A stretch of DNA of 63,929 nucleotides, counting the filler, from Octopus bimaculoides (Eukaryota): assembly GCF_001194135.2 (NCBI RefSeq). It is 9 parts of 8 records of this genome, joined end to end, with 100 filler letters (N's around TTAATTAATTAA, not from the genome) between each part and the next. Parts side by side here need not be neighbours in the genome. Positions count along the whole stretch, not along the records: positions 9,276 to 11,866 come from NC_068982.1; positions 11,967 to 22,415 come from NW_026351510.1; positions 22,516 to 25,373 come from NW_026405165.1; positions 25,474 to 36,791 come from NC_068982.1; positions 36,892 to 41,805 come from NC_069001.1; positions 41,906 to 56,773 come from NC_069005.1; positions 56,874 to 62,796 come from NW_026358742.1; 2 more parts are not named here. The stretch is one strand, 5' to 3'. Of the stretch, positions 9,726 to 57,045 are shown piece after piece. The notes below the pieces were generated by a model, which did not search any database, was not told the origin of the DNA, and worked only from the letters and a program-made list of their open reading frames with translations. How positions within the stretch are numbered: position 1 is the stretch's first letter; every line of letters starts with the position of its first letter. A program made the position numbers and the translations under genes.

Positions 9726-9760
9726 ATTTCACGTTTCGAGCGGAGCTCTTCATCAGAAAT
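9726..9760 (-). ncRNA. Minimal type-I hammerhead-like motif (probably inactive, H17=G)
   Basis: attt CTGATGA A GAGC tcc GCTC GAAA CG TG aaat. Confidence 0.6.
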
Positions 9761-10224
9761 ATAGAAAAAGTCCAAAGAAGGGAAGACAGAGAAAGAAAAT
9801 CGCCAACGATACACACACGGTCATCAGTAGCAACTCTAGCACATGGGCTGTTCGGGCTTAGCCCGAGTATAAATTTAGCAACGTGAACCTGTATTTGCAA
9901 GCTGATTTAATTTCTGCCAACACTGACTTCAAGTATGTAATTGCGGCCAATAACTCAGGCTCTTTTTATTGAGCCTGGTTCCAATTCATTTATTCTTGTT
10001 CAACATCTGGCGGTCATCTTTGAGGCGCCCTGTATCAAAAAATATCATTCGTAGCAGACATTCTCTCGACATCGTTCACACATGCCTGACTTGGGCTCAG
10101 AAGTTACAGCACGAGTTGTTATCTATAATCATAAAAATTAAAAGAAATTCAAATTCAATGTTTTCAAGAAAAGTTTCTGTTCTACAATATTCTTAAAGGA
10201 ACAAAAAATTATCCAGTAACTCAG

Positions 10225-10480
10225 ACTAATACGAACAAGCCTAGTAGGTGTAAAGGACTAAATTACATCTCTTGTCAAGAGTACAGGTGATAGTCAGATC
10301 AGTGATGTTTGTTGTGCACTCTGCTTTCATTATTTGATTGCTGTTATCCAGCAACTTGGACTAATACAAACAAGCCTGGTAGGTGTAAAGGATAAACTGA
10401 CATCTCTTGTCAAGAGTACAGGCGACAGTCAGATCGCTAATGTTTGCTTTGCACTCCATTTTCATTATTTGATTGCATCT
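10225..10480 (+). repeat. ~134-bp tandem duplication, possibly an hAT transposase remnant
   Basis: Two diverged copies starting actaatac(g/a)aacaagcct; translation TSLVGVKDKLTSLVK...ALHFHYLI weakly resembles the hAT MVG...GLV.L...HC.IH region. Confidence 0.45.
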
Positions 10481-10584
10481 GTGTGTAAAGATCAATTGTG
10501 TTTTGCGTGGTTGCCTTATTTTTACCCTTAGCTTAGAAATGGGGAAAGACAGAGTGGTAGATACAAAAAATAAGCCATTTGGGT

Positions 10585-11835
10585 TAGAAATATTACGGAT
10601 GCCTGTGTGCAAACAGCTGTGCTACACAGCAGTGAGACATGGATTGTGACAGCCAAGGACATGCATAGGCTTGAAAGAAATGAAGCCAGTATGCTTTGCT
10701 GGATGTGCAATGTCAGTGTGCATGTTCAACAGAGTGTAAGCATCTTGAGAGTAAAGTTAGGCATAAGAGGCATCAGATGTAGTGTGCAAGAGAGACGACT
10801 GCACTGGTACNNNNNNNNNNNNNNNNNNNNNNNNNNNNNNNNNNNNNNNNNNNNNNNNNNNNNNNNNNNNNNNNNNNNNNNNNNNNNNNNNNNNNNNNNN
10901 NNNNNNNNNNNNNNNNTTGTGACAGCCAAGGACATGCATAGGCTTGAAAGAAATGAAGCCAGTATGCTTTGCTGGATGTGCAATGTCAGTGTGCATGTTC
11001 AACAGAGTGTAAGCATCTTGAGAGTAAAGTTAGGCATAAGAGGCATCAGATGTAGTGTGCAAGAGAGACGACTGCACTGGTACAGTCATGTGATGTGTAA
11101 CGAAGTGCCAATCTCTAACTGTGAAGGGAACCTGTGGTAGAGGTCGACTCTGGAAGACATGGTACGGTGTGGTGAAGCATGAGCTTTGAACTTTGAGCCT
11201 CACAGAAGCAATGACTAGTGAACAAGACCTTTAGTGATATGCTGTGCTTGAGAGGTATGCTGTGATATGCTTGAGTGATATGCTGTGCTTGAGAGGACCG
11301 ATCAAGCCAAGTGCACCCATGTTAGTGGCATGAAAAGTACACCTTTCGAGTGTTGGGCCTCACGGAGGCAAAGTGGCTGAGTTCCTTTCAAGTGTTGGGC
11401 CTCACAGAGACAAAATGGCTGAGTTCCTTTTGAGTGTTGGGCCTCATAGTGGCAAACTCGCTGAGTTACTTTCGAGTGTTGAGCCTCATGGAGGCAATGA
11501 CCAAGACCTTTGGCATTATGCCGTGCTCGAGAAGACAACCCATCAAGCTGAGCAAAATTGCAGTTGTGACAGATACTGGTGTCACATCAATTGGCACCCA
11601 TGCCAGTAGCATGCAAAAGCACCATGGTGTCACACAAATGGCGCCTGTGCCAGTGACATGTAAAAGCACCCAATACACTCTCAGAGTGGTTGGCTTTAGG
11701 AAGGGCTTCCAACCGTAGAAAACCATGCCAAATCAAACTGGAGTCTGGTGCAGCCTGCCAGCCCAGTCAAACTGTCCAACCCATGCCAGTATGGATAACA
11801 GACATTAAATGATGATGATGATGATGATGATGATG

Positions 11836-11838
<3 letters not shown>
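10585..11838 (+). mobile_element. RTE-clade LINE 3' end (ORF C-terminus, 3' UTR, (GAT)n tail)
   Basis: VLHSSETWIVTAKDMHRLERNEASMLCWMCNV...QERRLHWYSHV; 3' UTR ends cagacattaaatgatgatgatg. Confidence 0.9.
11340..11500 (+). repeat. Minisatellite, ~4 copies of a ~39-bp unit inside the RTE 3' UTR
   Basis: Repeated unit cctttcgagtgttgggcctcacggaggcaaagtggctgagtt. Confidence 0.85.
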
Positions 11839-11866
<28 letters not shown>

Positions 11867-11966
11867 NNNNNNNNNNNNNNNNNNNNNNNNNNNNNNNNNN
11901 NNNNNNNNNNTTAATTAATTAANNNNNNNNNNNNNNNNNNNNNNNNNNNNNNNNNNNNNNNNNNNN

Positions 11967-11999
<33 letters not shown>

Positions 12000-12289
12000 T
12001 GAGTGGGAAAATATGTTATTTTAAGATATGAAATACAATCTATAAATTTACCGAAGACCGTGTATTTACAACATATTTACTTCAGGAAGCCATAGCGGAA
12101 GATAGTGAGTGCGTATATGATGTGCCGCGAAGAAAGGTAAAAATTAAGACTTAAGCGAAATTGATTACTGGGGAATGGTAACTACGTTACACAGCACAAT
12201 TCTGCAAGTGCAGCTTTACCCTTCCCATATACAGATTTTTCGGCCTAAATTTTGACGTTTGGTTTGGTGTCCTTTTTTTTTCAGGAACA

Positions 12290-14660: not shown

Positions 14661-14697
14661 CTCATTCATATATATATAGTTATGCATAGGTATGTTT

Positions 14698-14741
<44 letters not shown>

Positions 14742-23369: not shown

Positions 23370-24060
23370 TAGTGGCTTATTTGGTATTCCTTGAAGAAAT
23401 TTGTCCAGATTCCGTGTAAAGCTGATGGGATACTCTTCCTCTTTGATCTGTTTCGGGACAATGTTAGATATGGCAGGGCCTGTTGAGGAAAAGAAATTGT
23501 GTTGCAGTGTATATATGTGTGTTGTGATCCTGGATTGGGTAGGGGACGTATGGCCCGTGGTGCCAGCTTTGGATGAATTTTGAAGCTAATGTTGAGGTCG
23601 TTTCAATAATGCTGGTGGTATATTCTCCACATCGTGCAAATGATGTATCGTTCGTGCGGCGCTGGCGAGAATAGAGTCTCAGTGCTTTAAGGCAGTTCCA
23701 AAACTCGAGATCAGTCATCCTCTTAATTTCGAAATGTTTTGTTTTGTATGTGGAGACCACTGTGGGCAGCAGTATTCGAGGTGTGGCCGTATAAAGGAGG
23801 GGAAAAGAGGGATGATAACACCTTGTTCTCTGGACCAGAAGATTCTTGGGATCCAAGAGCTCATCCTACGAGCTATATCGACCATATTGTTGATGTGGGC
23901 ACACCAACTGAGATTGTTATCAACGATTACTCCTGGGTCTCTGGTATTATTAGGTGCTGTGAGTGGTTTCCCTGAAGGGAGAGAGTATGACTGTTGTAGC
24001 ATAGTCTCTCCCAAAATGCATCAGCTAAAATTTTCTCAGCCCCGGCATCCGAAACTCTGA
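23370..24060 (-). mobile_element. CR1/L2-group LINE RT C-terminal remnant
   Basis: RDPGVIVDNNLSWCAHINNMVDIARRMSSWI.RIFWSRE..VIIPLF.SFIRPHLEYCCPQWSPH..QNI..L...LRLYS.QRR...LDKFLQGIP. Confidence 0.9.
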
Positions 24061-25081: not shown

Positions 25082-25116
25082 TGTCTGAAGAAGGCAACGA
25101 AGTCGAAACTGTCATG
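25082..25116 (+). ncRNA. Minimal hammerhead-like motif, canonical core, weak stem I
   Basis: tgt CTGAAGA A GGC aacgaa GTC GAAA C t G TC atg. Confidence 0.45.
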
Positions 25117-25304: not shown

Positions 25305-25876
25305 GTGTGCATGTGTATATATTTGTATGTATATATTTGTATATATATATGTATATATATATATGTATATATANNNNNNNNNNNNNNNNNNNNNNNNNNN
25401 NNNNNNNNNNNNNNNNNTTAATTAATTAANNNNNNNNNNNNNNNNNNNNNNNNNNNNNNNNNNNNNNNNNNNNATATATATAAGTGTCTGTATATATGTT
25501 TATGTATCTATATATATAGATACATACTTATAAATATATATGTGTACATATTTATACATACAATACATACACACACACTCATATAAATAAATATGAGAAA
25601 TTTTATATCCATTAACAGTTTTGAAGTGATAAAATATTTAATTATTTCTTCCACATAAAACACTTTATTTAAGAGAGGTCGGTATTATCGTAATGTCGTA
25701 TCATCGATTAACCGAGCTTTGATACATTTCAAGAATTTATCATATATTTCTGTTATTCTAGTAAAATAATATATTCAGTCTGGGACAGAGTTTCATTGGT
25801 ATGCACTCAACAGAATCTTTAATCCGATGGCGATGACATCATTTAATACCAAGATTCAAATTTCATACACACATAC

Positions 25877-26008
25877 ATGAATTTTTCAAAATATCTTAAT
25901 AGTTTGTTGTGTGGGTGTGCTGTTGAGGCTAGACCACGGTGGTGACTGGTTGAATTGATGAATGAAAATCTGTTTCTTGAGCTGAGTGTAGAAGTAACTG
26001 AACAACAT
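25877..26008 (-). CDS. Candidate exon B, product unknown (CCSVTSTLSSRNRFSFINSTSHHRGLASTAHPHNKLLRYFEKF)
   Basis: aaacgtttgcag| acceptor, CAT|GTATGT donor, 132 nt open only in phase 2 to 2, compatible with candidate exon C. Confidence 0.3.
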
Positions 26009-26709
26009 CTGCAAACGTTTAACAGAGGATTTTAATATCACACAAATAGACAAACTGCGTTGGCCTTTTACAGATAACAACAGCGGTAATTACATACTAG
26101 GAGAGAGACACTGCTTGGAGTTTGTGGTAATCTATTGATACAAGGACCTGCAGTTTGGGTCATCTGGTTGGTTAAAAATGTGTTTTGTTTGGGGTTGTAT
26201 GAATGAAGAAACATAGCACTCAGCTGCCTCGACATTCTGCAATTAATTACTACGAAAAGCAGTTTTTATAGGGTGCAAAACAAGATACTAGAACATTAAA
26301 TGATGTGATGGCTTGACACTGATTGTGTGCTTAATAAACTGATCATGTGAAACTAATGTGGTTTGGTCATGATGTCTGACTGGTTACCATGAGGGTCAGC
26401 TTAGAATCTCTGTTTCAAATTATTCTTTTTGCTTTTGCTTTCAGTTTGGACTCAGTTCTCTGCTCTATGCAAATATTATAATGACATAAGCTCAGAGGTT
26501 GTTGATTGAGGAATTTTACGATTGGTATTTCAAGCATGACCATTCACATTCAACTTACCTTTAAGGTTAACTTAGTTAATGGTTAGAGAGAGAGAGAGGG
26601 AGGCAGAAAAAGAGAAATGCCTCCTTAGTGATGAAAGTGAGATGGCTCCTCTCACTCACTAACTCAGTCTTGATGGGTCATCTTATATGTACAGTAATGA
26701 TCTACCTAC

Positions 26710-26743
<34 letters not shown>

Positions 26744-27349
26744 GTCTATGGAGAGGAGGAGGAGATGATGATGATGATAATCATATCCGTTTATATTCTG
26801 AGTTTAAATTCCACCCTGGTTCGCTTTTGTGATTTGCTCAACCGAGGCTGATAAAATAAATTTCAGGATTGCTGTAATACACAATACCATAGAACGTGAT
26901 GTATTAGTGAGGTCACAGTTCAAAGAATAAAAGAATTAAAGAATTACAGACTAAAAGATATAGTCATGTTGTGGAATCATAATTGAAGGATTCACCCTAA
27001 GTTCTTTGTGCCACTGTATAAGAATTTAAATGATTGCACAGTTTCAAAGACATTTCTTTTTTTTTTCCTTTTCTTTTTTGTCAGAATTTGCTAAATTTGC
27101 CATCATGATAATGTGAAGAAACGGCCATTAAGAAAATGGATTTTAATTTGCATAGCGTGATGTAATTTGCATACTGGTGTTAGTTTAACAACAATTAGGA
27201 ATTACTTGTACACCAACAATTATCGTATGGAAAAATGTCAATGAGTAAAAGACAAAAAAATAAGCAACAGACAAAATTTGTTGTTCTAAAACAAGTAATT
27301 TTGATGTGGAATGAAAACTTGCAACTACACCTACAAGTTGTTGGTACAA

Positions 27350-27735
27350 CCATGGCTGTGTGGTTAGAAGTTTACTTCCCAACCACATGGTTCTGGGTTC
27401 AGTTCCACTTCTTGGAAACTTCAGCAGCTGTCGTTTACTGTAGCCTTGGACAGACCAAAGCCTTGTGAGTGGATTTTGGTAGACGGAAACTGAAAGGAGT
27501 CCATCGTATATACTTAATCTTTCTTTTACGTGTTACAGTCATTTGACTGCAGCCATGCTGGAGCACCATCTTTAGTCAAACAAATCAACCCCAGGACCTA
27601 TGTGTAAGCCTGTAAGCCTAGCCTAGTACTCATTCTATTGGTCTCTTTGACCGAATAGCTAAGTTACAGGGACGTAAACACACCAGCATCAGTTGTCAAG
27701 TGATGATGGTGGGGACAAGCTCAGATACACAAACA
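27350..27735. mobile_element. SINE family A head (+, 27350-27510) and a tail on the minus strand (27530-27735)
   Basis: catggctgtgtggttagaag...gacggaaactgaaagg; then cagtcatttgactgcagccatgctggagcacc... Confidence 0.85.
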
Positions 27736-27754
27736 AATATATTACATATGTATG

Positions 27755-27792
<38 letters not shown>

Positions 27793-27862
27793 AGGATTTC
27801 CTTTTCGTAATGAGATAAAAAAACCAAGGCTGTGTATAATATAGAACATTTATAAATAGAAG

Positions 27863-27910
27863 GTCTTACAGCTGTTTCCAGGATATTTATTATATCCCTT
27901 CATCGGAGAC
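27863..27910 (-). ncRNA. Minimal type-I hammerhead ribozyme, U4C core variant
   Basis: gtct CCGATGA a gggatat aataa atatcct g GAAA cagctg TA agac: 4-bp stem I, 7-bp stem II, palindromic stem III (ACAGCTGT), GUA triplet. Confidence 0.75.
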
Positions 27911-28589
27911 GGTGTGAGAGGATAATTAAGGAATAGTTAGTTTAGATAAGATAGGAAATAAAGAGTGAATGTAGAGATATTGTATTTGTAGATCCATTGT
28001 TTAGGCAGAATGGTATACATATAAGATTACAATACCTTGTGAGTAAAATCCAATATTCTTTAAGATTGGTCATTGCCTTTGTAAATCAATTATTAAGACC
28101 AAAGCCTTGCAAGTGGNNNNNNNNNNNNNNNNNNNNNNNNNNNNNNNNNNNNNNNNNNNNNNNNNNNNNNNNNNNNNNNNNNNNNNNNNNNNNNNNNNNN
28201 NNNNNNNNNNNNNNNNNNNNNNNNNNNNNNNNNNNNNNNNNNNNNNNNNNNNNNNNNNNNNNNNNNNNNNNNNNNNNNNNNNNNNNNNNNNNNNNNNNNN
28301 NNNNNNNNNNNNNNNNNNNNNNNNNNNNNNNNNNNNNNNNNNNNNNNNNNNNNNNNNNNNNNNNNNNNNNNNNNNNNNNNNNNNNNNNNNNNNNNNNNNN
28401 NNNNNNNNNNNNNNNNNNNNNNNNNNNNNNNNNNNNNNNNNNNNNNNNNNNNNNNNNNNNNNNNNNNNNNNNNNNNNNNNNNNNNNNNNNNNNNNNNNNN
28501 NNNNNNNNNTGGCCACAGTCAAATGACTGAAACAATTAAAAGAATAAAAGAATAACTCAGTGATTATTAGAAACCCAAGAAGAATCATA

Positions 28590-29110
28590 CACACTAGTTG
28601 ATTACATTGACCCCAGTACTTAACTGGTACATATTTCATTGGTAAAGGCACATGGTTCAGTGGTTAGAGCATTGGGCTCACTATCATGAGGTAGTGAGTT
28701 CAATTCCTGGATCTGTCTGTGTGTTGTGTTATTGAGCAAGACACTTTATTTCATGATGCTTCAGTTCACTCAGCTGTAGAAATGAATTGCCATGCTGTAT
28801 TGGCCCCTTTGCCTTTCCTTTGGATAACATCAGCGGCATGGAGAGAAGAGTCTGGTATGCATGAATGACTGTTGGGGTCTTCCATAAAACAACCGTACCC
28901 GGACATGTGCCTCAGTGGGGAACTTTCTAGGTGCAATCCCATGGACATTCATGACTGAAATGATGTCTTTACCCCTTATTTCATCAACCCCGAAATGATA
29001 AAAGGCAAAGTCTACCTTGGTGGCATTTGAACTCAAAATGTAAAAACCAGACGAAACAGCACTAACCATTTCATCTGACATCTTCACAATTCTACCAGCT
29101 CACCACAATT
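28590..29110 (-). mobile_element. SINE family B interrupted by a family C SINE
   Basis: Family B sequence resumes after the insert; tatttcat is duplicated at 28632-28639 and 28977-28984. Confidence 0.85.
28640..28976 (+). mobile_element. SINE family C (tRNA head plus CORE-like segment)
   Basis: catggttcagtggttagagc...gagttcaattcc...gtgttgtgttattgagcaagacactttatttc; homologous to 50195-50525. Confidence 0.9.
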
Positions 29111-29589
29111 CTACATAGCTTTATAATGGAAGGAGACTCAACAAATATATCTAAAATTCTCTGTAAGCATAGTATTTTCGCTTAGATGCCTAAATATATA
29201 ATTAACTTTATTAATATTTTTTTTTTTCCTCTCCATCTTACAATTTTACAAATGTTACATCATGTTGTTTTAAGGCTTCAATTTATGCACGGCTAAAATG
29301 ATACAAATATTTATATCCTTCTTCTCGAAATAATGGCACTGTTGGAAGATTTTAATGCTATAGAATACCATTTGCAATTAGGTATTAACATTGTATTCAT
29401 TGTTCTAGAGGCACGGTTTCTTAAGAATCATTCCATCAATGTAAAATGTAAGATATAATTTAAATACGATTCTCTACGTTGTATATTGAATAGAGATTGA
29501 ATGTGATAAATTTCATATTGATAAACCATTGTTATTATCTCTTGGCATTTAAGGCACCTAATCTGATTGTTTGAGTGTTACAGTCCCAT

Positions 29590-29714
29590 ATTTCATTTAA
29601 CCGTTACCTACTACTGCTGTTACACCTACCACTGCGACTACTGGTGGCGGCGCTGCTGTTGTCACTGCTGCTGCTGCTGCTACTACTACTACTAACAGCA
29701 GCAGCAGCACCACC

Positions 29715-29770
<56 letters not shown>

Positions 29771-30290
29771 CACTACTACTACTATCACCACAGTCACTAC
29801 TACTACTACGACAACTACCAACACCACCACCACCACCACCACCACAATTTCCATCATTGTCAATCCCTCCTCCATCTCTGCTGTTGGCCGTTATCTTCGT
29901 TTGCAAACTCTATCATTAACATCTCTCTCTCTCTCTCTTCCTCCTTGTTTTCCTTCTGCTAATCTGAATCATTGTTCTTCTTGTTGTTATCATCGTTGTC
30001 CTCATTATCAGTGTCGTCATGGTAACAATTAGACTCTGCGTTTTTATCGAGGCCACCATCACCCTTTATCATCATCTTCATCATTTGTAATCACCTTCAT
30101 CATCGTCGTCATCACCATCACCATCATCATCGTCATTGTAATCATTATTCTTCATTGTCGTCATCATCACCATCATCATCATAACAAACCCCAGCCACCA
30201 GCATCATCACAGCCATCAACACCCCACTCACCACCACCACCACCACCATCATCATCATCATTCATTATTGTCATTCTTTATCATTGTCAT
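29590..30290. repeat. Compound trinucleotide low-complexity tracts (CTA/CTG/CCA; CAT/CAC)
   Basis: Visible simple repeats; source of the poly-L/V/S ORFs in the track. Confidence 0.95.
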
Positions 30291-30369
30291 CATGTTTTTG
30301 TTATCATTGGTAATTCGTGATCTGTTTTTATTTCATTCTGATAATAAAGGGATGATTAGAATTATATAT

Positions 30370-30426
<57 letters not shown>

Positions 30427-30814
30427 TATATGTATATATGTATATATATGTGTGTATATTTGTTTCTTTATTATTCATTATTACATTGAAACAAAGAATA
30501 CCAGTGGATTTGTAAAATTGGAAGAACAACAGATAAAATAAAATAAGATAAAATATAGAAAAAAAAAACTCCCTTGCAATATTTTTTTCACATCTAGTTG
30601 TTAAATTCAAATCCGATAGGCATCAACTTTCTCTTTCATTCTTACCAGAGGCATGGAAGGAGATAAATGGTATACCAGTAAAATACTTGGGTTTGATGGG
30701 AATTGATTATGCTGTTATCCCCTTGAAATTTGCAGCCTTTTGCCTTTAGGGGAATTAATTCTTTAAAATTTTAGAATTACAAAATTTTAAAATCAGAAGA
30801 GATGGTCAGATGCA

Positions 30815-31140
30815 GGAATGGCTGTGTGGTATGATGTTTGCTTCCCAACCACATGGTTCTGGGTTCAGTCCCACTGCATGGCACCTTGCATAAGTGTCTT
30901 CTACTTTAGCCTCAGGCTGACCAAAACCATGTGAGTGGATTTAGTTGATGGAAACTGAAAGAAGCCCAGAATTTATATGTGTGTGTGTGTCTTTGTGAAT
31001 GTATGTGTGTGTGTGTTTTGAGGCTGTGTTTGTCTGTCCACCCCCTATCCCATCGCTTGACAAGCAGTGTTGGTTTGTTTACATCACTGTAACTTACCGG
31101 TTCAGCAAAAGAGACCAATAGAATTAACTGTTAGCCTTAA
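30815..31140 (+). mobile_element. SINE family A, 3'-truncated
   Basis: caggaatggctgtgtgg...gaaactgaaagaagccc...caaaagagaccaatagaat. Confidence 0.9.
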
Positions 31141-31168
31141 AGAAAAACAAAGAACAAAAATAAATATA

Positions 31169-31330
31169 GGCGCAGGAGTGGCTGTGTGGTAAGTAGCTTT
31201 CTTACTAACCACATGGTTCTGGGTTCAGTCCCACAGTGTAGCACCTTGGGTAATTGTCTTCTACTATAGCCTTGGGCCGACCAAAGCCTTGTGAGTGGAT
31301 CTGGTAGACAGAAACTGAAAGAAGCCCATC

Positions 31331-31369
<39 letters not shown>

Positions 31370-31563
31370 TATGTTTGTGTGTCTGTGTTTGTCCCCTCCA
31401 ACATCGCTTGATAACCGATGCTGATGTGTTTATGTCCCTGTCACTTAGCGATTCGGCAAGAGGAACCGATAGAATAAGTCCTGGGGTTGATTTGCTTGAC
31501 TAAAGGTGGTGCTCCAGCATAGCCACAGTCAAATGACTGAAACAAATAAAAGAATAAAAGAAT
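31169..31563 (+). mobile_element. SINE family A, reference full-length copy (tRNA-like head, CORE-like segment, internal (TA)n, ~190-bp tail)
   Basis: ggcgcaggagtggctgtgtggtaag...gggttcagtccc...gcaccttgggtaa...(TA)n...gactgaaacaaataaaagaataaaag. Confidence 0.9.
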
Positions 31564-31794
31564 TGGGGGTTGATTCATTCAACTAATTCTTCAAGGCAGT
31601 GCTCCAGTATGGTCGCAGTTTAATAACTGAAACAAGGAAAAAATAAAAAGATAAAATGTTAATTAAAGACCCTTAACGACCACTTTGCATAAAAGAATAA
31701 TAAAAGAAAATAAATTTCTTTCTATATTTCGGTTGAGAAAATTGTCCTGATTTTAAAATAACTAATAGCAACGGAAGCCATATTATTATTTTTT

Positions 31795-32142
31795 ATTTAC
31801 TTGTTTCAGTCATTTGACTGAGGCCATGCTGGAGCATCGCTTTTAGTCAAACAAATCGACCCCAGGACTTATTCTTTGTAAACCTAGTACTTATTCTATC
31901 GGTCTCTTATTTTTGCCGAACCGCTAAGTTAAGGGGACGTAAACAAACCAACATCGGTTGTCAAGCAATGGTGGTGGGGACAAACCCAGACACACACACA
32001 CATATATATATCGTTATATGTTGTTATATATTGTTATATTTTGCTCCATTTTTACAAAACTGTCCAATGAACGGAAACGTGAAACTCTGAGTAACAGTTT
32101 TTGTTCTATTTCTGCTGCTTTTAAATAAAGTATATATATACA

Positions 32143-32186
<44 letters not shown>

Positions 32187-32320
32187 CAATGGGCTTCTTT
32201 CAGTTTCTGTCTGCCAAATTCACTCACATTGGTCAGCTTGAGGCTATTGTTGAAGATACTTGGCCAAGGTGCCATGCAGTGGGACTGAACCCAGAACCAT
32301 GAGGTTGGTAAGCAAGCTAC
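31795..32320 (-). mobile_element. SINE family A, with an inserted hammerhead-bearing fragment and a head truncated by a MITE
   Basis: Tail 31795-31990 and head 32185-32320 on the minus strand. Confidence 0.85.
32060..32097 (+). ncRNA. Minimal type-I hammerhead-like motif (core CCAATGA, probably decayed)
   Basis: ctgt CCAATGA ACG gaaa CGT GAAA CTCTGAG TA acag: stems I, II and III all pair; the 3' half recurs at ~39697. Confidence 0.65.
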
Positions 32321-32556
32321 CAAAAAGCAATCTTTATATCCAACTTAAACTGTATGTAACATTAAAGCACTGAATATTGTGTTATTTACTTTGAGAGGAC
32401 CTCTCATATGAACGCAGCGCTAGCGTTAAAAGCATGCATGCTTTTATGCACCATGGATCCACATGAGAGGTCCTCTCAAGGTAAATGACAGAATTCAGTG
32501 CTCTAACAAGACATCCACTTGAAGATGGATTTAAAGATTGCCTTTTGGTATTAATA
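32318..32556. mobile_element. Fold-back MITE-like element with nested inverted repeats
   Basis: taccaaaaagcaatcttta/taaagattgccttttggta; agcactgaat/attcagtgct; ttgagaggacctctcat/atgagaggtcctctcaa. Confidence 0.8.
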
Positions 32557-32688
32557 CCACTTGGCACTAATCCCACCTTCAAATCCCAATGTCAATTTTC
32601 CCTTTCATTTTTTTTGATTTGATAAATACAGCAATAGTCCAGTCTCTCTATCTCGCTCTCACTGTCTCTCTCCCTCTCTCACTTTCTC

Positions 32689-32724
<36 letters not shown>

Positions 32725-32858
32725 ATGGAGTAATTACTATGAAGCATTGTGTAGAATATATTGTATAAAGGATTGTGGGTAAGGCCAGAACAATGCGAAG
32801 TAAATGCAAGGTAAATCACAAGAAAACAAATATGTGAATTAACGTAGACTTACCTTGT

Positions 32859-32954
32859 ATTCAATATTTTGGGGTTATGACCCCATTTGCAAGAAACTGA
32901 CGGCAACAATCATCAGTTTCTTGAAAATGGGGTCATAACCCCGAAATATTGAAT
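32859..32954. repeat. Fold-back (42-bp arms, 12-nt loop) formed by two opposed hammerhead-like copies
   Basis: Arms 32859-32900 and 32913-32954 with 2 mismatches. Confidence 0.9.
32918..32953 (+). ncRNA. Minimal type-I hammerhead-like motif, U3-A8 core variant
   Basis: ttc TTGAAAA T GGGG tcataa CCCC GAAA TA TT gaa. Confidence 0.55.
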
Positions 32955-32989
32955 TTAAAGTAACTCTAATTTTTTCTACTCTCAGCACC

Positions 32990-33190
32990 AGGCTTTGAAA
33001 ATTTTGGGGGGAAGGGGGTTAGTTGATTACATCAAGCCCCAGTGTGTAACTGGTATTTATTTCATCAACCCCGAAAGGATGAAAGGCAAAGTCGACCTCA
33101 GTGGAATTTGAACTCAGAATGTAGCAACGGGTGAAATACTGCTAAGCATTTTGTGCGGTGTGCTAATGGTTCTGCCAGCTCACCACCTTA
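32990..33190 (-). mobile_element. SINE family B, followed by a (TAA)n tract
   Basis: gattacatcaagccccagtg...aaaggcaaagtcgacctcagtggaatttgaactcagaa...ctgccagctcacc. Confidence 0.9.
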
Positions 33191-33195
33191 AAACA

Positions 33196-33260
<65 letters not shown>

Positions 33261-33398
33261 GTGAACAATCTGGTGTGTTTATTTTGATGGCCTACCAATG
33301 TATACAGTGCATTTCTCTGCTCTAGGTGTCAGGAAGACACTCAGCCACTCAGCAAGAAATGGAAACAGAATTGAAAGAAGATGATAATAATAATAATA

Positions 33399-33462
<64 letters not shown>

Positions 33463-34025
33463 TGATAATAATTGCAATATTAATGATTGTGGTTTCTGCT
33501 TTTATGACAAGGCTGGCCATTTAAGGGAAGAGGATTAATGGATGGCATCCCCCCCCCCACTTGACCTGTACTTTATTTAATTAAGGCCCATAAGGATGAA
33601 AGGCAAAGTTGACCTTGGCAGTATTTGAACTTGGAATGCAAAACAGCCGGAAAGAAAAAAAAAAAAAGAATGAGACATTGGCATTTTTCTGATGGTGTAA
33701 CAATTTTGCTTGTTCGCTACTCTGTATGATGATGATGACGATGATGATGGTGATGATGATAATGATGGTGGTTGTGACAATGATGATGAGAAAAGTGATG
33801 ATGATGATGATGATGTTGTTGATGGTGGCAGTGGTGGTGGTGGTGATGATGATGATGNNNNNNNNNNGTGCTGATAACAATGATGGTGATGATGATGATG
33901 ATGGGAATTGTAACAACGATGATGATGATGATGATGATGACGAACCATTTCTAAAGATATGTTTGTTTGTTTTTGCTTTTTAAGTTTAGCCTTTGTCTCA
34001 CAAGTTCCCACATTCCTTTCTGTAC

Positions 34026-34074
34026 TTCCAGATGTACCGCCATAATAAAGTTCTACTTGTCATAATGACTCCAT
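34026..34074 (-). CDS. Weak candidate exon (GVIMTSRTLLWRYIW)
   Basis: attgtgtttcttcag| acceptor, only phase 1 open, weak GAA|GTACAG donor; phase-compatible with candidate exon B. Confidence 0.15.
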
Positions 34075-34299
34075 CTGAAGAAACACAATAGCAGCCATGT
34101 TGGGGCAACAAATCCATTTATTCAGCTAATAGCCAAGATTTACTTTCGATCGAAAACAACAAATTCAAGAACGTAAGCAATTAATTTTTATTTCAAATAC
34201 ATTCAAAGATATTCTGAAGAAATAATTCGAGGAATTTGACTTAGAATAAATGAAATATTACTGAAAAATAACTAGCATTGTGTTGCAGTTCCTGCCATG

Positions 34300-34363
34300 C
34301 AAAGGGATTGCCATGTAATATATATATACACACACACACATATATATATATACACACATATAC

Positions 34364-34451
<88 letters not shown>

Positions 34452-34964
34452 ATATATATATGTATATATGTATGTATATATATGTATATATGTATATATA
34501 TATATGTATATATGTATATATATATATGTATATATGTATATATATATATGTATATATGTATATATATATATATGTATATATGTATATATATATATATATG
34601 TACACATATATATAAACATATATATATATATATAAATACACACACATATATATATATATATACACATATTATAAATGTATATATACATATTATGTATACA
34701 TATACATATGCATACACACATACGTATATATATACACACATATATATACACACACACACACATATATATATATACACATATATACATATATATATATTTT
34801 TATTAATTTATATACATACAAAAAACACACACATTCATATATATATCCAAGGTGCATGTGCATATATGCGTATATCTATAAACCCATCCACCCATCTATC
34901 TATCTATCTGTCTACCTATCTATCTATACAAACACACACACACACACATATTTGTATAGATATG

Positions 34965-34997
<33 letters not shown>

Positions 34998-35159
34998 TTG
35001 TATTGTCTGTGCATGCATTTGTGTATGCACACGCATGTGTGTGTGTGTGTGTGTGTGTGTGCATATATCTTGAACAATAACACCAAAGCCAGTCAATGTC
35101 ACATGAAGGAATTTGGTATTTAGAGACTAGAGAAACAGAGAATGTTTCTTGTATACATT

Positions 35160-35204
<45 letters not shown>

Positions 35205-35220
35205 TATATACGAATAATAT
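34300..35220. repeat. Large (TA)n/(TATG)/(CA) compound microsatellite
   Basis: Visible simple repeat; source of the poly-YI/IY ORFs. Confidence 0.95.
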
Positions 35221-35679
35221 ATATGTATATGTTTCCATGAAGCATTGTGTGGTGTATATATAAATGTTATAATTTGTTTCTATAAAGCCAGAACAATGTG
35301 AGATACAAANNNNNNNNNNNNNNNNNNNNNNNNNNNNNNNNNNNNNNNNNNNNNNNNNNNNNNNNNNNNNNNNNNNNNNNNNNNNNNNNNNNNNNNNNNN
35401 NNNNNNNNNNNNNNNNNNNNNNNNNNNNNNNNNNNNNNNNNNNNNNNNNNNNNNNNNNNNNNNNNNNNNNNNNNNNNNNNNNNNNNNNNNNNNNNNNNNN
35501 NNNNNNNNNNNNNNNNNNNNNNNNNNNNNNNNNNNNNNNNNNNNNNNNNNNNNNNNNNNNNNNNNNNNNNNNNNNNNNNNNNNNNNNNNNNNNNNNNNNN
35601 NNNNNNCCTCTCTCTCTCCTTCACTCTCCCTCTCTCACCTTCTCTGTTCTTCTCTCCTATTCCAGCTTACAAGGGTAAG

Positions 35680-35830
35680 CATAGCCATGTAGTTAAGACA
35701 CCGGCTTTGCAACAAATTGGCTTTGGGTTCAGTCCCACCACAGGTCACCTTGAGCAAATGTTTTCTACCATAGCCCTGAGATGATCAATGCCTTGTGAGT
35801 GAATCTGGTAGATGGAAACTGTATGGAAAC
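35680..35830 (+). mobile_element. SINE family A head
   Basis: gggttcagtcccacc...accttgagcaaatg...gatggaaactg. Confidence 0.8.
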
Positions 35831-35831
35831 C

Positions 35832-35872
<41 letters not shown>

Positions 35873-35876
35873 GTTC

Positions 35877-35912
35877 CTTTCTGTCGAAGAGCGTAGGCTT
35901 GAAACGTAAAAG
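35877..35912 (+). ncRNA. Minimal type-I hammerhead-like motif, A6U core, in a ~130-bp PLE-type repeat
   Basis: cttt CTGTCGA A GAGC gtag GCTT GAAA CG TA aaag. Confidence 0.6.
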
Positions 35913-36029
35913 ACTTTCTTACTTCCCAAGCATTAAACTAATACACCTGTTTGTTGCTTACACACCTGTCTTCATCGTTTATGTTTTTGTAAATTCTCAC
36001 TATATATAGGTATATATATACATATATAT

Positions 36030-36180
36030 ATACTTCCTGAGTTCAAATTCCGCCAAGGTTGACTTTGCTTTTTATCTTTTTGGGGTTCATAAATTAAGTA
36101 CCAGTTTCATACTGGGATCGATCTAATCGACTGGCCCCCTCCCCCAAAACTTCGAGCCTTGTGCCTAGAGTAGAAAACAA
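36030..36180 (+). mobile_element. SINE family B, 5'-truncated
   Basis: ctgagttcaaattccgccaaggttgactttgc...gatctaatcgactggccccctccccc...gtgcctagagtagaaaa. Confidence 0.85.
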
Positions 36181-36289
36181 AAATAAAATTATATACACAT
36201 GCAACTTGGAAATATATATATATATATTTGCCATGATAGATCGCTGACCACTACACACATTTTTTCTCTCCTTGTTTCTTTCCGTGTTC

Positions 36290-36325
36290 CTTTCTGTAGA
36301 AGATAATAGGCTCGAAACGTTAAAG
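36290..36325 (+). ncRNA. Second copy of the A6U hammerhead-like family (stem II damaged)
   Basis: cttt CTGTAGA A gata atag gctc GAAA CG TT aaag; downstream ~100 bp homologous to 35913-36000. Confidence 0.5.
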
Positions 36326-36752
36326 ACTTTCTCAATTCTCGAGTGTTATACCAATACATCTATTTGTTTTCTACACCACCTGTCTTCGTCTGTTGTTTTT
36401 TTGTGAATTCTCCCTATATATTAGTATGTGTGTATGTTTTTTGTATGTGTATAAATAAATATATTTACTTCAAAACTGGAAAACCTAGCTATCAAGCGAA
36501 GGAAGAAAACTCGCCTGTCCATAATTTCTTAAGAGGAATATTTCTAGAACTATCACCGGCGTTCTTGGGTTTTAAAAAAACCTTCTTTGCAGAGAACAGT
36601 TATCAATTTGAGAAACTGAAGAGATGTCTAGTTCATGCTAGATATGAAACCAATGGTTTTTTTCTAAGCTGCTACATTACACATGCAAAAATAAATAACT
36701 GCTCTATATTTTATAGGGTATGCTCTTCTCCTGATTTATGATCTTATAACGA

Positions 36753-36791
<39 letters not shown>

Positions 36792-53533: not shown

Positions 53534-53744
53534 CTGGAAATTGAAAAAAAAAAAAAAAAAAAAGAGCATTATTAAAGCATCTCCATAATATTAGTTACAG
53601 GGGAGGAAAATTATATAGTAGGTTATTACCACATAAGAATGAATAAATTTCTAGTAGCCTTAACGGGCAAGCTGGCAGAATCGTTAGCATGCTGGACAAA
53701 ATGCGTAGCAGCATTTTGTCCATCTTTATGTTTTGAGTTCAAAT

Positions 53745-53965
53745 TTGACTGAGGACTGGTGAAACCAGATGGCTACACCAGACTCCAATTTGATTTGGCA
53801 GAGTTTCTACAGCTGGATGCCCTTCTTAACGCCATATCATCATCATCATCATCATCATCGTTTAACGTCCGCTTTCCATGCTAGCATGGGTTGGACGATT
53901 TGACTGAGGACTGGTGAAACCGGATGGCTACACCAGGCTCCAATCTAATTTGGCAGAGTTTCTAC
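53745..53965 (-). mobile_element. Two adjacent RTE-type 3' tail fragments around a (CAT)n tract
   Basis: atttgactgaggactggtgaaacc.gatggctacaccag occurs twice. Confidence 0.85.
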
Positions 53966-54549
53966 ATGCATATATATATATACATCAGTAAAAGACTGAT
54001 CTAGCTAGTTTGAACATAAAGCAGGTAAAATATCTGGGCTGGATACGGCCAGTCTAAATGCTAAAAGGTTAAAATTGCGACAACTCAAACAAATATACAA
54101 TTAACAAGTCCAAAAGCAAATGAAGAATTAAATTAAAACTGATTTCAATAATACATACCCTTGTTTATTTTTGTCCAGGAGGGAAGGGAAAAATGCTCGC
54201 AGATATGTACAGGTACAGATCAACAACAACACTACTGTCAACAAACTTTGGAAGTTGAACAAAGCAGACTGCAATAAGAACAAAAATAATACATTAAGTA
54301 ACGATGATGCTGATAATGACGAGGAGGTATTCAGAGAAACTTATGGAAACATAACCAAGTAAAATCCCCAGCTGGCAACCAGTAGGGTGGAGGCTGTCCT
54401 CTCAACCAATATACTGCTGTAGGTGCTGCTGGATGACAAACTCTGGTGGTTATGTTATTCCATACTTTCCGCTGAAATTTTCAGGATGACATAGGACCGA
54501 GATGCCTGGCAGCTTGTTGTACTCAAGAAGACCCATACTCCACAGAAGA

Positions 54550-54775
54550 AGTATTAAGACTGGTCCCTCTCTGCTAGTGCCATGTAAAAAAGTGTCTGTG
54601 CAGTTCTACATAAAAGCACTCATATGGTGCCATGTAAAAGCACCCAGCACACTCTGTGAAGTGGTTGGCATTAGGAAGGGCATCCAACCGTAGAAACCAT
54701 GCCAAACCAGACTGGAGTCTGGTGCAGCTTACAGTTTGTCAGCTCTGGTCTTTAACGGACATTAAATGATGATAT
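54550..54775 (+). mobile_element. RTE-type 3' tail
   Basis: catgtaaaagcacccagcacactctgtgaagtggttggcattaggaagggcatcca...ggacattaaatgatgat. Confidence 0.85.
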
Positions 54776-54776
54776 A

Positions 54777-55090
54777 TAACGGGCTTCTTTTAGTTTCCGT
54801 CTATAAAATCCACTAATAAGGTTTTGGTCGGCCCAGGGATGTACTAGAGGATACTTACCCAAGGTGCCACACAATGGGACTGAACTAAGAATCATATGGT
54901 TTGGAAGCAAACTTATTAACACAGAGCCATGCCTGCACCAGTTTGTTTTATTTTTTTTGTAACGAAATGGATTCAGACTTAGCCCAGTGGTTCAGAAGTT
55001 TGCTTCTCAACTACTAGATCGATTCCACTACGTGGCACCTTGAACAAGTATCTTCTACTATCATCACTTCTTTGTGTAGACGGAAACTGC
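54777..55090. mobile_element. Two SINE family A heads, one on each strand (-, 54777-54937; +, 54985-55090)
   Basis: gggcttcttttagtttccgtct...ccaaggtgccacac; cacgtggcaccttgaacaagtatcttctactat. Confidence 0.8.
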
Positions 55091-55731
55091 GTGAATCGGT
55101 TACATAACAGGAAAAAATGCTGATAAACGATGCGTCAAGCAAAAAATGCTTTCCTCTTTTCTCTTGCCATCAGAAATGTAGTGTAATAATTAGTGATTGT
55201 ACTGTTGGGCACAGTTAACCAACAAACGACGCTATTGTTCACAATATGCTTGATGTATAATATAAAATGTAATGTACGATAGGTTAGCCTTTGAACCCTG
55301 GTTGCGTTAGACACCCGAATGTACGTCAAACCATGTAAGGTAAAGTTTAACGAACAAGAAACAGTGTCGTTTACAAGGTTTCGTGTATTTATAAAAGTTG
55401 GCAAATTTAGAGAGAAATTTTTCCTTTTACTTTCTCTCTCTCCCATGAAATGTTTCTCTCAAAACGTCAGCAAACTCAGCCATTATTTCAAATTACATAG
55501 ACACACACACACACATACATATATTCGAAACGCCGGTGTTAAAATGGGGGTAGCTGATGAATGAAAATGTTCTCTGTGGCTTGTGTGTTTTCTGTACTCT
55601 GGTTATTATTATTTTTTTTGTCCACGTTTTGTTTGCAATGTCCTGTACGCAGATATGCACCTATATATACAGGTAGACGTAGGTGTGCACATACCTGTAC
55701 GTATATATGCATATACTCATTTATTATTTGT

Positions 55732-55764
<33 letters not shown>

Positions 55765-56889
55765 ATTGTCTTTTAAATAATAACTGGTTGATATTATCTG
55801 TGAGTACAAGAGGATTCCATTCCACTTTCTACGAGAATTAATATTTCTTTATAAATTTAGATATTAAAGACAAACTGGAAAATGTGTCGATAAAAATTGA
55901 TACACACACACACACACTCATATACATACAGACGCACGCACACACACACACTATAGTATTCTGAGACACTCACACACTATAGTAATCCTGAGGCACTCGC
56001 ATCCTCCTCGAAATCGAAACCAAATTCCAAGAAGTAAGGCACTATTTGCCAATTATATATATTCGGAAATAAAGCAACGATACAAAATTTAGTTTGATAA
56101 GCGACCCTGGGCTGCGAAACTAGGTTTACTTTCAAAATTGATGCCAGTAGCTATTTGAAAGCACCGTCAAAAGTAATGTTATATACTTCTCACTAGGGTC
56201 GGCCCAGCAGCATTGTAGATCCTTAGGGATCATCACTGGACCCTGTAGCATTTCTTTATTGACAGCAAGCCTCAGCATACATAGATCAGAACTGCACCAC
56301 CACCTTCTCAAATTCGACTCCCCCTCCTGTATCTGTCCAGGATATAAGACCGCTGTGGTTATCCCACAGAACGAAAAACCTTGCTAGAAGTGTTTTCTCC
56401 TTGCGACAACACCCAAAAAGAACTTTTGATTGCGAACTGGATTTTGCTGACGTAAACTAACGTTAATTTCTTCAGACTCCGGTGCTCTATATTTTGTATA
56501 ATAGTCTTACATGTAACAAGGAACGGCTCCTTCCGTTTTGAGTTCGAATTCCACCGAGGCCAACTTTGCGTTTCAACTCTCCCCTGTCGATAAAATAACG
56601 GACTATTCAATCAGATGTGATTTTCTTTCTATTCGAATGACATAACATTCTATTAAACTTAGCATCGAACAGCAAATACTCGTTAAATATTTTTCATTTA
56701 ATAATGTTACAACTTTACATTAAGGAGTGAAGCGAATTATTTCCTGTAATTCAGGCCGCTTCGTGATCTCTGCNNNNNNNNNNNNNNNNNNNNNNNNNNN
56801 NNNNNNNNNNNNNNNNNTTAATTAATTAANNNNNNNNNNNNNNNNNNNNNNNNNNNNNNNNNNNNNNNNNNNNATGAGGAATTATGTAT

Positions 56890-57045
56890 ATTATTTACAT
56901 TTGACGGATATTTGTCCTCATCATGTATGTTGTTAACATAACGTTTCGGCTGATATAGCCTCCTGATGAAAGCTTGAGCGTATATAAGTTGAAACGTTGT
57001 GTTAACAAAGAAGATGACGACAAATATCCGTCAAATGTAAATAAT
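56890..57045. repeat. Fold-back whose junction lies inside a hammerhead motif
   Basis: attatttacatttgacggatatttgtc...aacgtttc versus gaaacgtt...gacaaatatccgtcaaatgtaaataat. Confidence 0.85.
56960..57001 (+). ncRNA. Minimal type-I hammerhead motif with canonical core; stem I damaged
   Basis: ctc CTGATGA A AGCTT gagcgtatat AAGTT GAAA CG TT gtg. Confidence 0.65.

What the first reader, a model, noticed from the sequence alone, without database searches (positions are those of the whole stretch)
9726..57001. A hidden set of eight minimal hammerhead-ribozyme motifs from several Penelope-type families, with multiple core variants
Seen: eight stem I-core-stem II-GAAA-stem III-NUN-stem I architectures at 9726(-), 25082(+), 27863(-), 32060(+), 32918(+), 35877(+), 36290(+) and 56960(+), about one per 7 kb of called sequence. 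All have a very short, mostly palindromic stem III (ACGT, AATATT, ACAGCTGT, ACTCTGAGT), and most carry one extra nucleotide between A9 and stem II. Established: PLE pseudo-LTRs carry minimal type-I hammerheads thought to cleave as dimers, and an extra residue after A9 is known from a viroid hammerhead. Inference: short non-autonomous hammerhead-bearing PLE derivatives (retrozyme-like) are a major repeat class here and are sampling core variants. Any still-active sense-strand copies inside introns could cleave host pre-mRNA.
Basis: partly seen in the sequence, partly recalled or inferred. Interest (0 to 1): 0.75.

Follow-up and report, generated by a model that had tools for sequence, protein, structure and literature searches.

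The report
Penelope-element hammerheads with lineage-fixed core variants
Seven of the eight motifs, plus a ninth that was missed, are small hammerhead-shaped RNA motifs at the cut-off ends of Penelope-type jumping genes, a known arrangement; the unusual part is one family of thousands of copies in which a normally fixed core letter (A6) is U, which likely slows but does not abolish self-cutting, and cutting is untested.

Summary
All eight motifs are at the stated coordinates and exceed chance (3 exact-core hits vs 0.025 shuffled). A ninth (36610-36664) was missed. Seven belong to six dispersed repeat families; 25082 is single-copy. Four families (A, B, F, G) continue upstream, on the same strand, into Penelope-like-element (PLE) endonuclease and/or RT frames. 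So these are mostly PLE 3'-end/pLTR remnants, not tandem retrozymes. Minimal PLE hammerheads, the extra base after A9, palindromic stem III and U3-A8 are published. The variants are mostly fixed per lineage: A6U (family A, about 7,000 exact copies, estimated), U4C (B, C), U3-A8 (D), G17 (an E subfamily); G5A at 32060 is likely CpG decay. Several window copies are damaged or locked in fold-backs. Genome-wide density is about 1 per 50 kb, not 1 per 7 kb. Family G has a tRNA-like A/B-box head at which most short copies start. No host intron and no cleavage ends were seen. The scan already noted the A6U lineage and the tRNA-headed PLE on other DNA. Verdict: known kind with a testable variant; interest 0.4.

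The parts
9726..9760 (-). Family E minimal hammerhead: canonical core, extra A, ACGU palindrome, G at the cleavage position 17. Part of a ~200-nt remnant (about 9620-9825).
   Evidence: (2,559 first-look candidates), 28, 106: G17 in 18 of 19 best-hit copies, but in 0 of 10 A6-type matches among the first 100, so G17 marks a subfamily. ORF not reached; over 800 nt of CA-rich sequence upstream in several copies.
25082..25116 (+). Single-copy hammerhead-like motif: canonical core, G10.1-C11.1, GUC triplet, weak stem I with two G-U pairs. Probably an old decayed copy; chance not excluded.
   Evidence: 1 match in the genome; folds into an alternative hairpin.
27863..27910 (-). Family B hammerhead with lineage-level U4C core and an 8-nt palindromic stem III, at the 3' end of a Nematis-like PLE. 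The element runs from the gap at 28117 to (TA)n near 27790.
   Evidence: 2,666 candidates; C4 in 22 of 24 best hits; sense EN fragment about 1.05 kb upstream in L372 and L376, 2 of 8 loci.
32059..32098 (+). Family C hammerhead: family core has U4C; this copy also has G5A (CpG site), predicted inactive.
   Evidence: (505 candidates), 17, 106: C4 in 24 of 24; G5 in 11 and A5 in 13 of 24 query-biased best hits. EN with a CxC-x5-C linker upstream but inverted in L033 and L036.
32860..32895 (-). Broken inverted partner of the family D hammerhead (head-to-head insertion).
32918..32953 (+). Family D hammerhead with U3-A8 compensatory core, inside a fold-back that would mask it in RNA.
   Evidence: 581 candidates; U3 in 15 of 15, A8 in 13 of 15 best hits; fold-back -72 kcal/mol, z -13.7. 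ORF link not found.
35877..35912 (+). Family A hammerhead, A6U core (C7/A17 subfamily), 5'-truncated at (TA)n just upstream of stem I.
36230..36421 (+). Family A ~190-nt remnant between (TA)n tracts. Hammerhead at 36290-36325 with A6U core; stem II privately damaged.
   Evidence: 3,212 candidates; 36304 and 36305 differ in nearly all family reads. Neptune-like RT, CxxC linker and GIY-YIG collinear upstream in L181; RT thumb in L307.
36610..36664 (+).
   Evidence: 254 candidates; RT with GLYRDD motif, CxC-x5-C linker and GIY-YIG collinear, ending about 130 nt upstream in L126, L130, L142, L143.
56874..57062 (.). Family G head-to-head remnant. Hammerhead at 56960-57001(+) with the stem I 5' strand altered at the inversion junction. 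The family is a Penelope/Poseidon-like PLE with a tRNA-like head upstream of the hammerhead; the head is absent from this copy.
   Evidence: 1,529 candidates; fold-back -66.9 kcal/mol.

Best explanation
Seven of the eight motifs and a ninth are minimal type I hammerhead motifs inside short, 5'-truncated or inverted end-pieces of repeats, four families of which join Penelope-like retrotransposon reading frames, and they were likely left by target-primed reverse transcription from uncut RNA, with each lineage's core variant fixed in its source element. Shown: family membership; ORF linkage for A, B, F, G; (TA)n or AT-rich ends; head-to-head inversions; copies that run straight across the cleavage site; U at position 6 in 96 of 100 and 88 of 100 exact-pattern matches. 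Inferred: reverse transcription starts downstream of the hammerhead and mostly stops early. The short units with fixed 5' ends (young A, E, G) are run-off copies from a transcript start inside the pLTR, in G at a tRNA-derived Pol III-type promoter. The hammerheads work, if at all, slowly, as dimers through the palindromic stem III or with help from the PLE protein. A6U is a tolerated, slow variant under weak selection, not a dead relic. Most genomic copies are silent passengers.
For: Families. ORF links: F; G (head and hammerhead follow the EN in 21 of 30 loci); A; B. Inversions: (14 of 30). A6U: 2,943 exact matches, control 0; first 100: U6 96, C6 4, A6 0, G17 0; 4,837 matches, control 0; first 100: U6 88, A6 10, C6 1, G6 1, G17 0; 7 of 7 family A copies in unselected genome stretches have U6. 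In that lineage N7 takes all four bases and N17 takes U, A or C while the stems stay paired. Across 17 motifs stem I is 96% and stem II 100% paired, vs 45% and 62% when strands are swapped between families (partly circular). 5'-end pile-ups: G; A and E. Published: PMC4209133 (min-HHR, extra nt, palindrome, U3-A8, solo truncated copies, opposite-strand pairs); PMC8557442 ((TA)n bias, inverted 5' copies, linker motifs); PMC11167929 (internal RT initiation; catalytic HHR mutants do not affect insertion in vitro; HHR is protein-assisted).
Against: No cleavage was shown; single motifs fold no better than shuffles (z +1.6 to -1.7). Pfam and PDB gave no significant hit for the ORF fragments, so RT/GIY-YIG and clade labels rest on motifs I read in the translations (partly recalled; linker motifs as described in PMC8557442). 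D and E were not linked to an ORF; C only through an inverted piece in 2 copies. Best-hit tallies for B, C, D and E are biased towards the window's own letters, and unbiased counts for B and C were not obtained. An E subfamily with G17 spread, and 7 of 18 close F copies show G at 16.1 (alignment in a T run), which fits no selection for cleavage as well as weak selection. The first-100 lists come from one contig only.
Confidence: 0.82

Rival explanations
1. The variant hammerheads (A6U, U4C plus CpG decay, G17) are catalytically dead. The shape persists only by descent or as a binding/priming structure for the PLE protein, and lineages spread without any cleavage. This differs from the best explanation only in whether the variants cut.
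For: HHR mutants do not impair PAc insertion in vitro (PMC11167929, passages). A6C gives kobs below 0.1/min (PMC3088659 section 8). G17 subfamily of E. Hundreds of RNA reads carry a family A derivative lacking the first half of the core (joint 36255>36310).
Against: In family A, N17 changed among U, A and C but is G in 0 of the 200 listed matches; the youngest-looking, most uniform subfamily has the GUC triplet; the other core positions and the stems hold across copies 72-91% identical to the probes. The deleted form was not found in any fetched locus, so it may be one expressed copy.
Confidence: 0.35
2. The short copies are independent non-autonomous elements (SINE- or retrozyme-like) with their own transcription and possibly circular RNA, mobilised in trans by PLE proteins.
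For: Defined 5' ends: G, 36 of 50 head alignments start within -18..+4 of the tRNA-like position 1; E, 14 of 21 targeted and 5 of 6 untargeted at -59..-79; young A, 19 of 25 at -62..-78 (conditional on the query). G has A- and B-box motifs and aligns with the genome's tRNAs (best tRNA-Arg(UCU), z 9.1).
Against: The same sequences are the ends of ORF-bearing elements. No tandem arrays. B, C and F are a truncation continuum. RNA reads lie on both strands and 72-77% run on into unlike flanks. Rfam scores the head only 10.9 bits (E 9.1) and ARAGORN finds no tRNA in 12 loci.
Confidence: 0.2
3. The motifs are chance matches in AT-rich, repeat-rich DNA.
For: The two-mismatch descriptor class gives 2.3 hits in shuffles; 25082 is single-copy; folding energies are unremarkable.
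Against: Exact-core excess (3 vs 0.025 in the window; 9 vs 0 in 854 kb), thousands of exact copies with 0 control matches, and position downstream of PLE ORFs.
Confidence: 0.02
4. Some copies have been co-opted to cleave host pre-mRNA from within introns.
For: Family A and G sequences are abundant in RNA-seq as parts of longer transcripts; 35877 and 36290 are same-strand, 413 nt apart and share the ACGU palindrome.
Against: No host exon recognised in the window; stem II of 36290 is broken; D and G copies are sequestered in fold-backs; almost no reads between 36448 and 36750; copies decay like neutral DNA; vertebrate retrozymes are reported depleted from introns (bioRxiv 10.64898/2026.07.22.740005, abstract).
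Confidence: 0.03

Closest known systems
[quoted passage not shown]
   Same: Short stem I, extra nucleotide between 9 and 10.1, palindromic minimal stem III, many heterogeneous families per genome, mostly solo truncated copies, opposite-strand pairs, U3-A8 family.
   Different: The published consensus is CUGANGA with NUH. Here one very large lineage has U6, two have C4, and one subfamily has G17. No A6U core appeared in the searchable supplement.
EN+ PLE clades Neptune, Nematis and Penelope/Poseidon (Craig et al. 2021, PMC8557442, passages; Frangieh et al. 2024, PMC11167929, passages)
   Same: RT then C-terminal GIY-YIG, Zn-finger-like linker in A, B, C, F, hammerhead near the 3' end, (TA)n targets, inverted 5'-truncated copies; in G an open frame runs through the hammerhead as in PAc.
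   Different: Family G carries a tRNA-like A/B-box segment and an (AAT)n tract between the EN stop and the hammerhead, which I did not find described. Clade labels here are by motif, without a tree.
Non-LTR retrozymes (bioRxiv 10.64898/2026.07.22.740005, part 1 of 5 read; PMC7229834, search listing only)
   Same: Short, non-coding, type I hammerhead, PLE-related.
   Different: Defined as tandem head-to-tail units with a hammerhead in each; not the case at any of these loci.
Natural hammerhead core variants (Perreault et al. 2011, PMC3088659, section 8 and passages)
   Same: U4C (viroid) and U3-A8 are known natural variants; A6C shows position 6 can vary with low activity.
   Different: A6U is not mentioned in the text I read, and here it is fixed in thousands of copies. 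Lunse et al. 2017 on PLE hammerhead variants could not be read and may cover it.
Schistosoma SINE-like hammerhead elements (review PMC6765202, section 11 part 2 read)
   Same: Pol III-type promoter joined to a hammerhead (family G).
   Different: In G the tRNA-like head is built into the terminal repeat of a protein-coding PLE, upstream of the hammerhead.

Membership tests
Minimal type I hammerhead (min-HHR) | Stem I - CUGANGA - stem II - GAAA - short stem III - NUH - stem I order | tested here: met
   Order met in all nine. Exact core at 9726, 25082, 36610, 56960; variant core at the others.
Minimal type I hammerhead (min-HHR) | Invariant core letters (A6, U4, G5, H17) | tested here: not met
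   Not met for family A (U6), B and C (C4), the 32060 copy (A5) and the 9726 subfamily (G17). These are filed as variants that may work like min-HHRs, not as canonical members.
Minimal type I hammerhead (min-HHR) | Stem pairing kept across different sequences | tested here: met
   stem I 96% vs 45% swapped, stem II 100% vs 62%. Partly circular, since the motifs were found by pairing.
Minimal type I hammerhead (min-HHR) | Palindromic A15.1-U16.1 segment allowing dimer stem III | tested here: met
   Fully palindromic in all seven window families and 25082.
Minimal type I hammerhead (min-HHR) | Self-cleavage after position 17 | not testable with these tools
   Needs an assay. Standard RNA-seq showed no end pile-ups but cannot show such ends reliably.
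EN+ Penelope-like element | RT plus C-terminal GIY-YIG frame collinear upstream of the hammerhead | tested here: met
   A (L181) and F: RT and EN. G: EN collinear, N-terminal part with DKG in L299/L357 across an assembly gap. B: EN in 2 loci. Identified by motifs; Pfam gave no significant hit.
EN+ Penelope-like element | Same, for families C, D and E | tested here: inconclusive
   C: inverted EN in 2 copies. E: ORF not reached; one Neptune-like RT 332 nt upstream across a microsatellite (L124). D: no upstream sequence recovered.
EN+ Penelope-like element | 5'-truncated and inverted (head-to-head) insertions, (TA)n or AT-rich targets | tested here: met
EN+ Penelope-like element | Full pLTR-ORF-pLTR copy and RT phylogeny | not tested
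   Long copies are broken by assembly gaps; no tree was built.
Non-LTR retrozyme | Head-to-tail tandem units, each with a hammerhead | tested here: not met
   No tandem array overlaps any motif; neighbours are solo or head-to-head.
Non-LTR retrozyme | Circular RNA | tested here: inconclusive
   No end-to-start joint among those listed (43 joints not shown); libraries are not suited.
tRNA-derived SINE (family G short copies) | tRNA-related head with A and B boxes and a defined 5' end | tested here: met
   Rfam match only weak; ARAGORN none.
tRNA-derived SINE (family G short copies) | Independent of an autonomous element; Pol III transcription | tested here: inconclusive
   The head is part of the autonomous element (27 of 30 EN loci). 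No T4 run in 896 + 611 nt of G ORF, but shuffles give P(0) of 0.29 and 0.46.

The most novel reading that the evidence does not exclude
The largest hammerhead lineage seen in this genome (Neptune-like family A) has run for several subfamily generations on an A6U catalytic core that still cleaves in vivo, completed by dimerisation or by the element's own protein. It is a natural functional variant at a position held to be near-invariant. Next to it, a Poseidon-like lineage drives its whole RNA from a captured tRNA (Pol III) promoter placed just upstream of its hammerhead.
Probability: 0.3. Interest if true: 0.62.

Novelty: new variant of a known kind. Interest (0 to 1): 0.4.

Why it matters
Why PLEs keep a hammerhead is open: it is almost universal in canonical PLEs, yet dispensable for insertion in vitro (PMC11167929). 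One genome with sister lineages that differ at single core positions (A6 vs U6, H17 vs G17, U4 vs C4, C3-G8 vs U3-A8), each with hundreds to thousands of copies, is a ready natural panel: measure cleavage per lineage and compare it with amplification success. If A6U cleaves, hammerhead descriptors miss a large class. If it does not, cleavage is dispensable for PLE spread in vivo. The bulk observation, many minimal hammerheads from several PLE families in an animal genome, has been known since 2014.

Tried and rejected
Rfam scan of the window: the 150 listed matches are microsatellite-driven miRNA-type hits, none a hammerhead; 8 family G loci gave 0 at gathering score. Pfam on 7 ORF fragments and PDB on 1: nothing significant. 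Long 'open frames' of family G were assembly gaps, so no full-length element was seen. The EN next to family B in L065 belongs to another hammerhead family; rejected as B's ORF, and B was linked later. L124's RT cannot be assigned to E. MAFFT across families misregistered the stems, so pairs were counted from coordinates. My first idea that G is a free-standing SINE was dropped when the EN frame was found directly upstream. Sequencing runs: no RNA holder listed on record; raw reads of three runs with the same species label were laid instead. They show no strand bias and no start or end pile-ups, which says nothing on cleavage. T-run test for Pol III: not significant. Unbiased genome-wide counts of position 4/5 variants in B and C were not obtained, so G5A as pure CpG decay versus a subfamily stays open. 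Lunse et al. 2017 is not held. Literature searches for A6U and for a tRNA/Pol III pLTR found no description; bioRxiv supplements and one PMC4209133 supplement could not be seen.

Full report
Setting. The window is a pack of nine stretches, 28-43% GC and rich in microsatellites. Its genome G000 has 2.34 Gb in 145,327 contigs. It looks like an animal; earlier scan notes call it octopus-like, which I did not test. Six of the nine motifs lie in one 11.3-kb stretch (25474-36791).

Observation. All eight architectures are at the stated places. A descriptor (stem I, core, optional extra base, stem II, GAAA, palindromic stem III, U-N17, stem I) gave 3 exact-core, 5 one-mismatch and 8 two-mismatch hits. 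The means in 40 local dinucleotide shuffles were 0.025, 0.33 and 2.3. It also found a ninth and best-formed motif at 36610-36664(+). Folded alone, none of the nine beats shuffles (z +1.6 to -1.7), as expected for minimal hammerheads.

Density. In 100 evenly spaced 10-kb stretches (854,203 called bases) a stricter descriptor gave 18 hits vs 2.2 shuffled; canonical cores were 9 vs 0 and A6U 3 vs 0.1. The window has 6 in 59,870 bases (P=0.002, post hoc). By BLAST, families A, B, C and E gave 16 hits there, one spurious, and G gave 6 copies. That is about one per 40-55 kb, roughly 40,000-50,000 copies genome-wide (extrapolation) and well under 1% of bases at 200-300 nt each. One per 7 kb is a property of this pack.

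Families. DNA searches gave these first-look candidate counts (not copy numbers): A (35877, 36290) 3,212; B (27863) 2,666; C (32060) 505; D (32918) 581; E (9726) 2,559; F (36610) 254; G (56960) 1,529. 25082 has one match by DNA search and by pattern; it is probably an old relic, and chance is not excluded. Most copies of A-E end at or near (TA)n; G ends in AT-rich DNA. Head-to-head pairs are common in C, D and G. The window's D and G copies are such fold-backs (-72 and -67 kcal/mol), which would hide the ribozyme in a transcript.

Link to PLE proteins. F: RT (GLYRDD), a CxC-x5-C linker and GIY-YIG run collinearly to about 130 nt before the hammerhead in several copies. A: locus L181 from the unselected sample has RT (YIDD), a CxxC-type linker, GIY-YIG, a CA-rich UTR and then the A6U hammerhead; L307 agrees. 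B: a sense EN fragment lies about 1.05 kb upstream in 2 of 8 loci. G: 30 loci fetched by the EN C-terminus carry the tRNA-like head in 27 and head plus hammerhead in 21; the N-terminal region with DKG was seen in L299/L357. C: an EN lies upstream but inverted in two copies that are 83% alike over 1.3 kb. D and E were not linked. Pfam and PDB did not recognise these fragments. The labels Neptune-like (A), Nematis-like (B, C, F) and Poseidon-like (G) rest on motifs, partly from PMC8557442 and partly recalled.

Core variants. A6U is a lineage trait. Exact patterns with positions 6, 7, loop II and 17 left free gave 2,943 matches (4-nt loop) and 4,837 (3-nt loop), with 0 controls. The first 100 listed had U6 in 96 and 88 and G17 in none. 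That extrapolates to about 7,000 exact U6 copies, a lower bound; the lists come from one contig. All 7 family A copies in the unselected sample have U6. N7 takes all four bases and N17 takes U, A or C, so the tolerant positions move while the rest holds. In best-hit sets, which are biased towards the query, B has C4 in 22 of 24, C has C4 in 24 of 24, D has U3 in 15 of 15 and A8 in 13 of 15, and E has G17 in 18 of 19. G17 is absent from the 10 A6-type matches, so it marks a subfamily. C4 creates a CpG; the window's G5A (13 of 24 best hits) is most simply its decay, and T4 forms occur in unselected partner copies, but an unbiased count was not obtained. Across 17 motifs (7 window families, 25082 and 9 others from the genome) stems differ in sequence yet pair 96% and 100%, vs 45% and 62% when swapped; this is partly circular.

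Short units and family G. 5' ends form a continuum in B, C and F but pile up in E (-59 to -79 from the core) and young A (-62 to -78). In G, about 25 nt after the EN stop comes a tRNA-like segment with A- and B-box motifs, then (AAT)n, then the hammerhead. 36 of 50 head alignments start within -18..+4 of its first base (30 loci were fetched with the head as query, and some loci count twice). RNA depth steps up about 2.5- to 3-fold there, with loose ends, which reflects the genomic copies. The head aligns with the genome's tRNAs (best z 9.1 of 20 compared), weakly with Rfam (10.9 bits) and is not called by ARAGORN. An open frame runs through the G hammerhead, as in the anole element PAc. I infer that these units are run-off copies from a transcript start in the pLTR. 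Whether G's start is a Pol III promoter, and whether it serves the whole element, is untested.

Mechanism. Shown: intact copies read straight across the cleavage site, so the template was uncut or religated RNA. From the literature (PMC11167929, passages): PLE reverse transcription starts internally, hammerhead mutants do not block insertion in vitro, and the hammerhead needs the protein. Inferred: the motifs are passengers of target-primed insertion; selection acts only on source elements and is weak; A6U is likely slow rather than dead. A6C gives under 0.1/min (PMC3088659). The dead-relic rival stays serious (G17 subfamily; a core-deleted A derivative in reads).

RNA. In three raw RNA runs of one study, 6,197-8,910 reads per 11.5-12.9 million lay on family G, on both strands, with 72-75% running into unlike flanks and no start or end pile-ups. 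The family A/F stretch behaves alike, and family F has almost no reads. This shows embedded copies in host RNA, not cleavage. I recognised no host exon among the long ORFs, so the intron idea is unsupported.

Comparison. PMC4209133 already describes thousands of minimal hammerheads per metazoan genome in many families, the extra base, palindromic stem III, solo truncated copies, opposite-strand pairs and U3-A8; its supplement includes molluscs. U4C is known from a viroid (PMC3088659). Retrozymes are tandem by definition (bioRxiv 10.64898/2026.07.22.740005), which is not met here. A6U and a tRNA-headed pLTR were not found in print, but Lunse et al. 2017 could not be read. The scan has noted both before on other DNA, including A6U lineages in probable sharks; those notes are unreviewed and are not counted as support.

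Verdict. The feature is real, the kind is known, and one variant lineage is worth an assay. Novelty: new variant of a known kind. Interest 0.4.

Noticed in passing
window 4406-4825 (-): Decayed GIY-YIG endonuclease fragment with a Cys linker (25% identical to the family F EN, E 2e-10), with stops and frameshifts; no hammerhead found downstream.
   Followed up: partly
window 9220-9693 (-), 10574-11140 (+), 23464-23865 (-): Fragments that look like non-LTR (RTE-like) reverse transcriptase; the family E remnant abuts the first.
   Followed up: no
window 36255-36310, in RNA reads: Hundreds of reads in three runs join 36255 to 36310 with 12 other letters between: an expressed family A derivative lacking stem I 5', the first core segment and part of stem II. 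Not found in fetched loci.
   Followed up: partly
L033 and L036 (family C): Two copies, 83% alike over 1.3 kb, share the same inverted EN piece fused to the UTR: a twin-priming-like inversion that was itself copied, or an old duplication.
   Followed up: partly
L363, L366; L189, L197, L203, L207, L218, L219, L222, L224, L320: At least eight further hammerhead families in this genome, one downstream of a Nematis-like EN, one with U3-A8 and one with U4C.
   Followed up: partly
window 36040-36185: A different, very abundant short repeat gives read depth of 1,300-1,750 per direction at its highest in RNA-seq, far above the hammerhead families.
   Followed up: no
L243, L248, L249, L250, L255 (family G): The (AAT)n tract between the tRNA-like head and the hammerhead varies from about 10 to 140 nt and is often interrupted by other retroelement fragments, so it may be an insertion target.
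   Followed up: no
window 47384: Two-mismatch descriptor hit with a poor core; probably chance.
   Followed up: no
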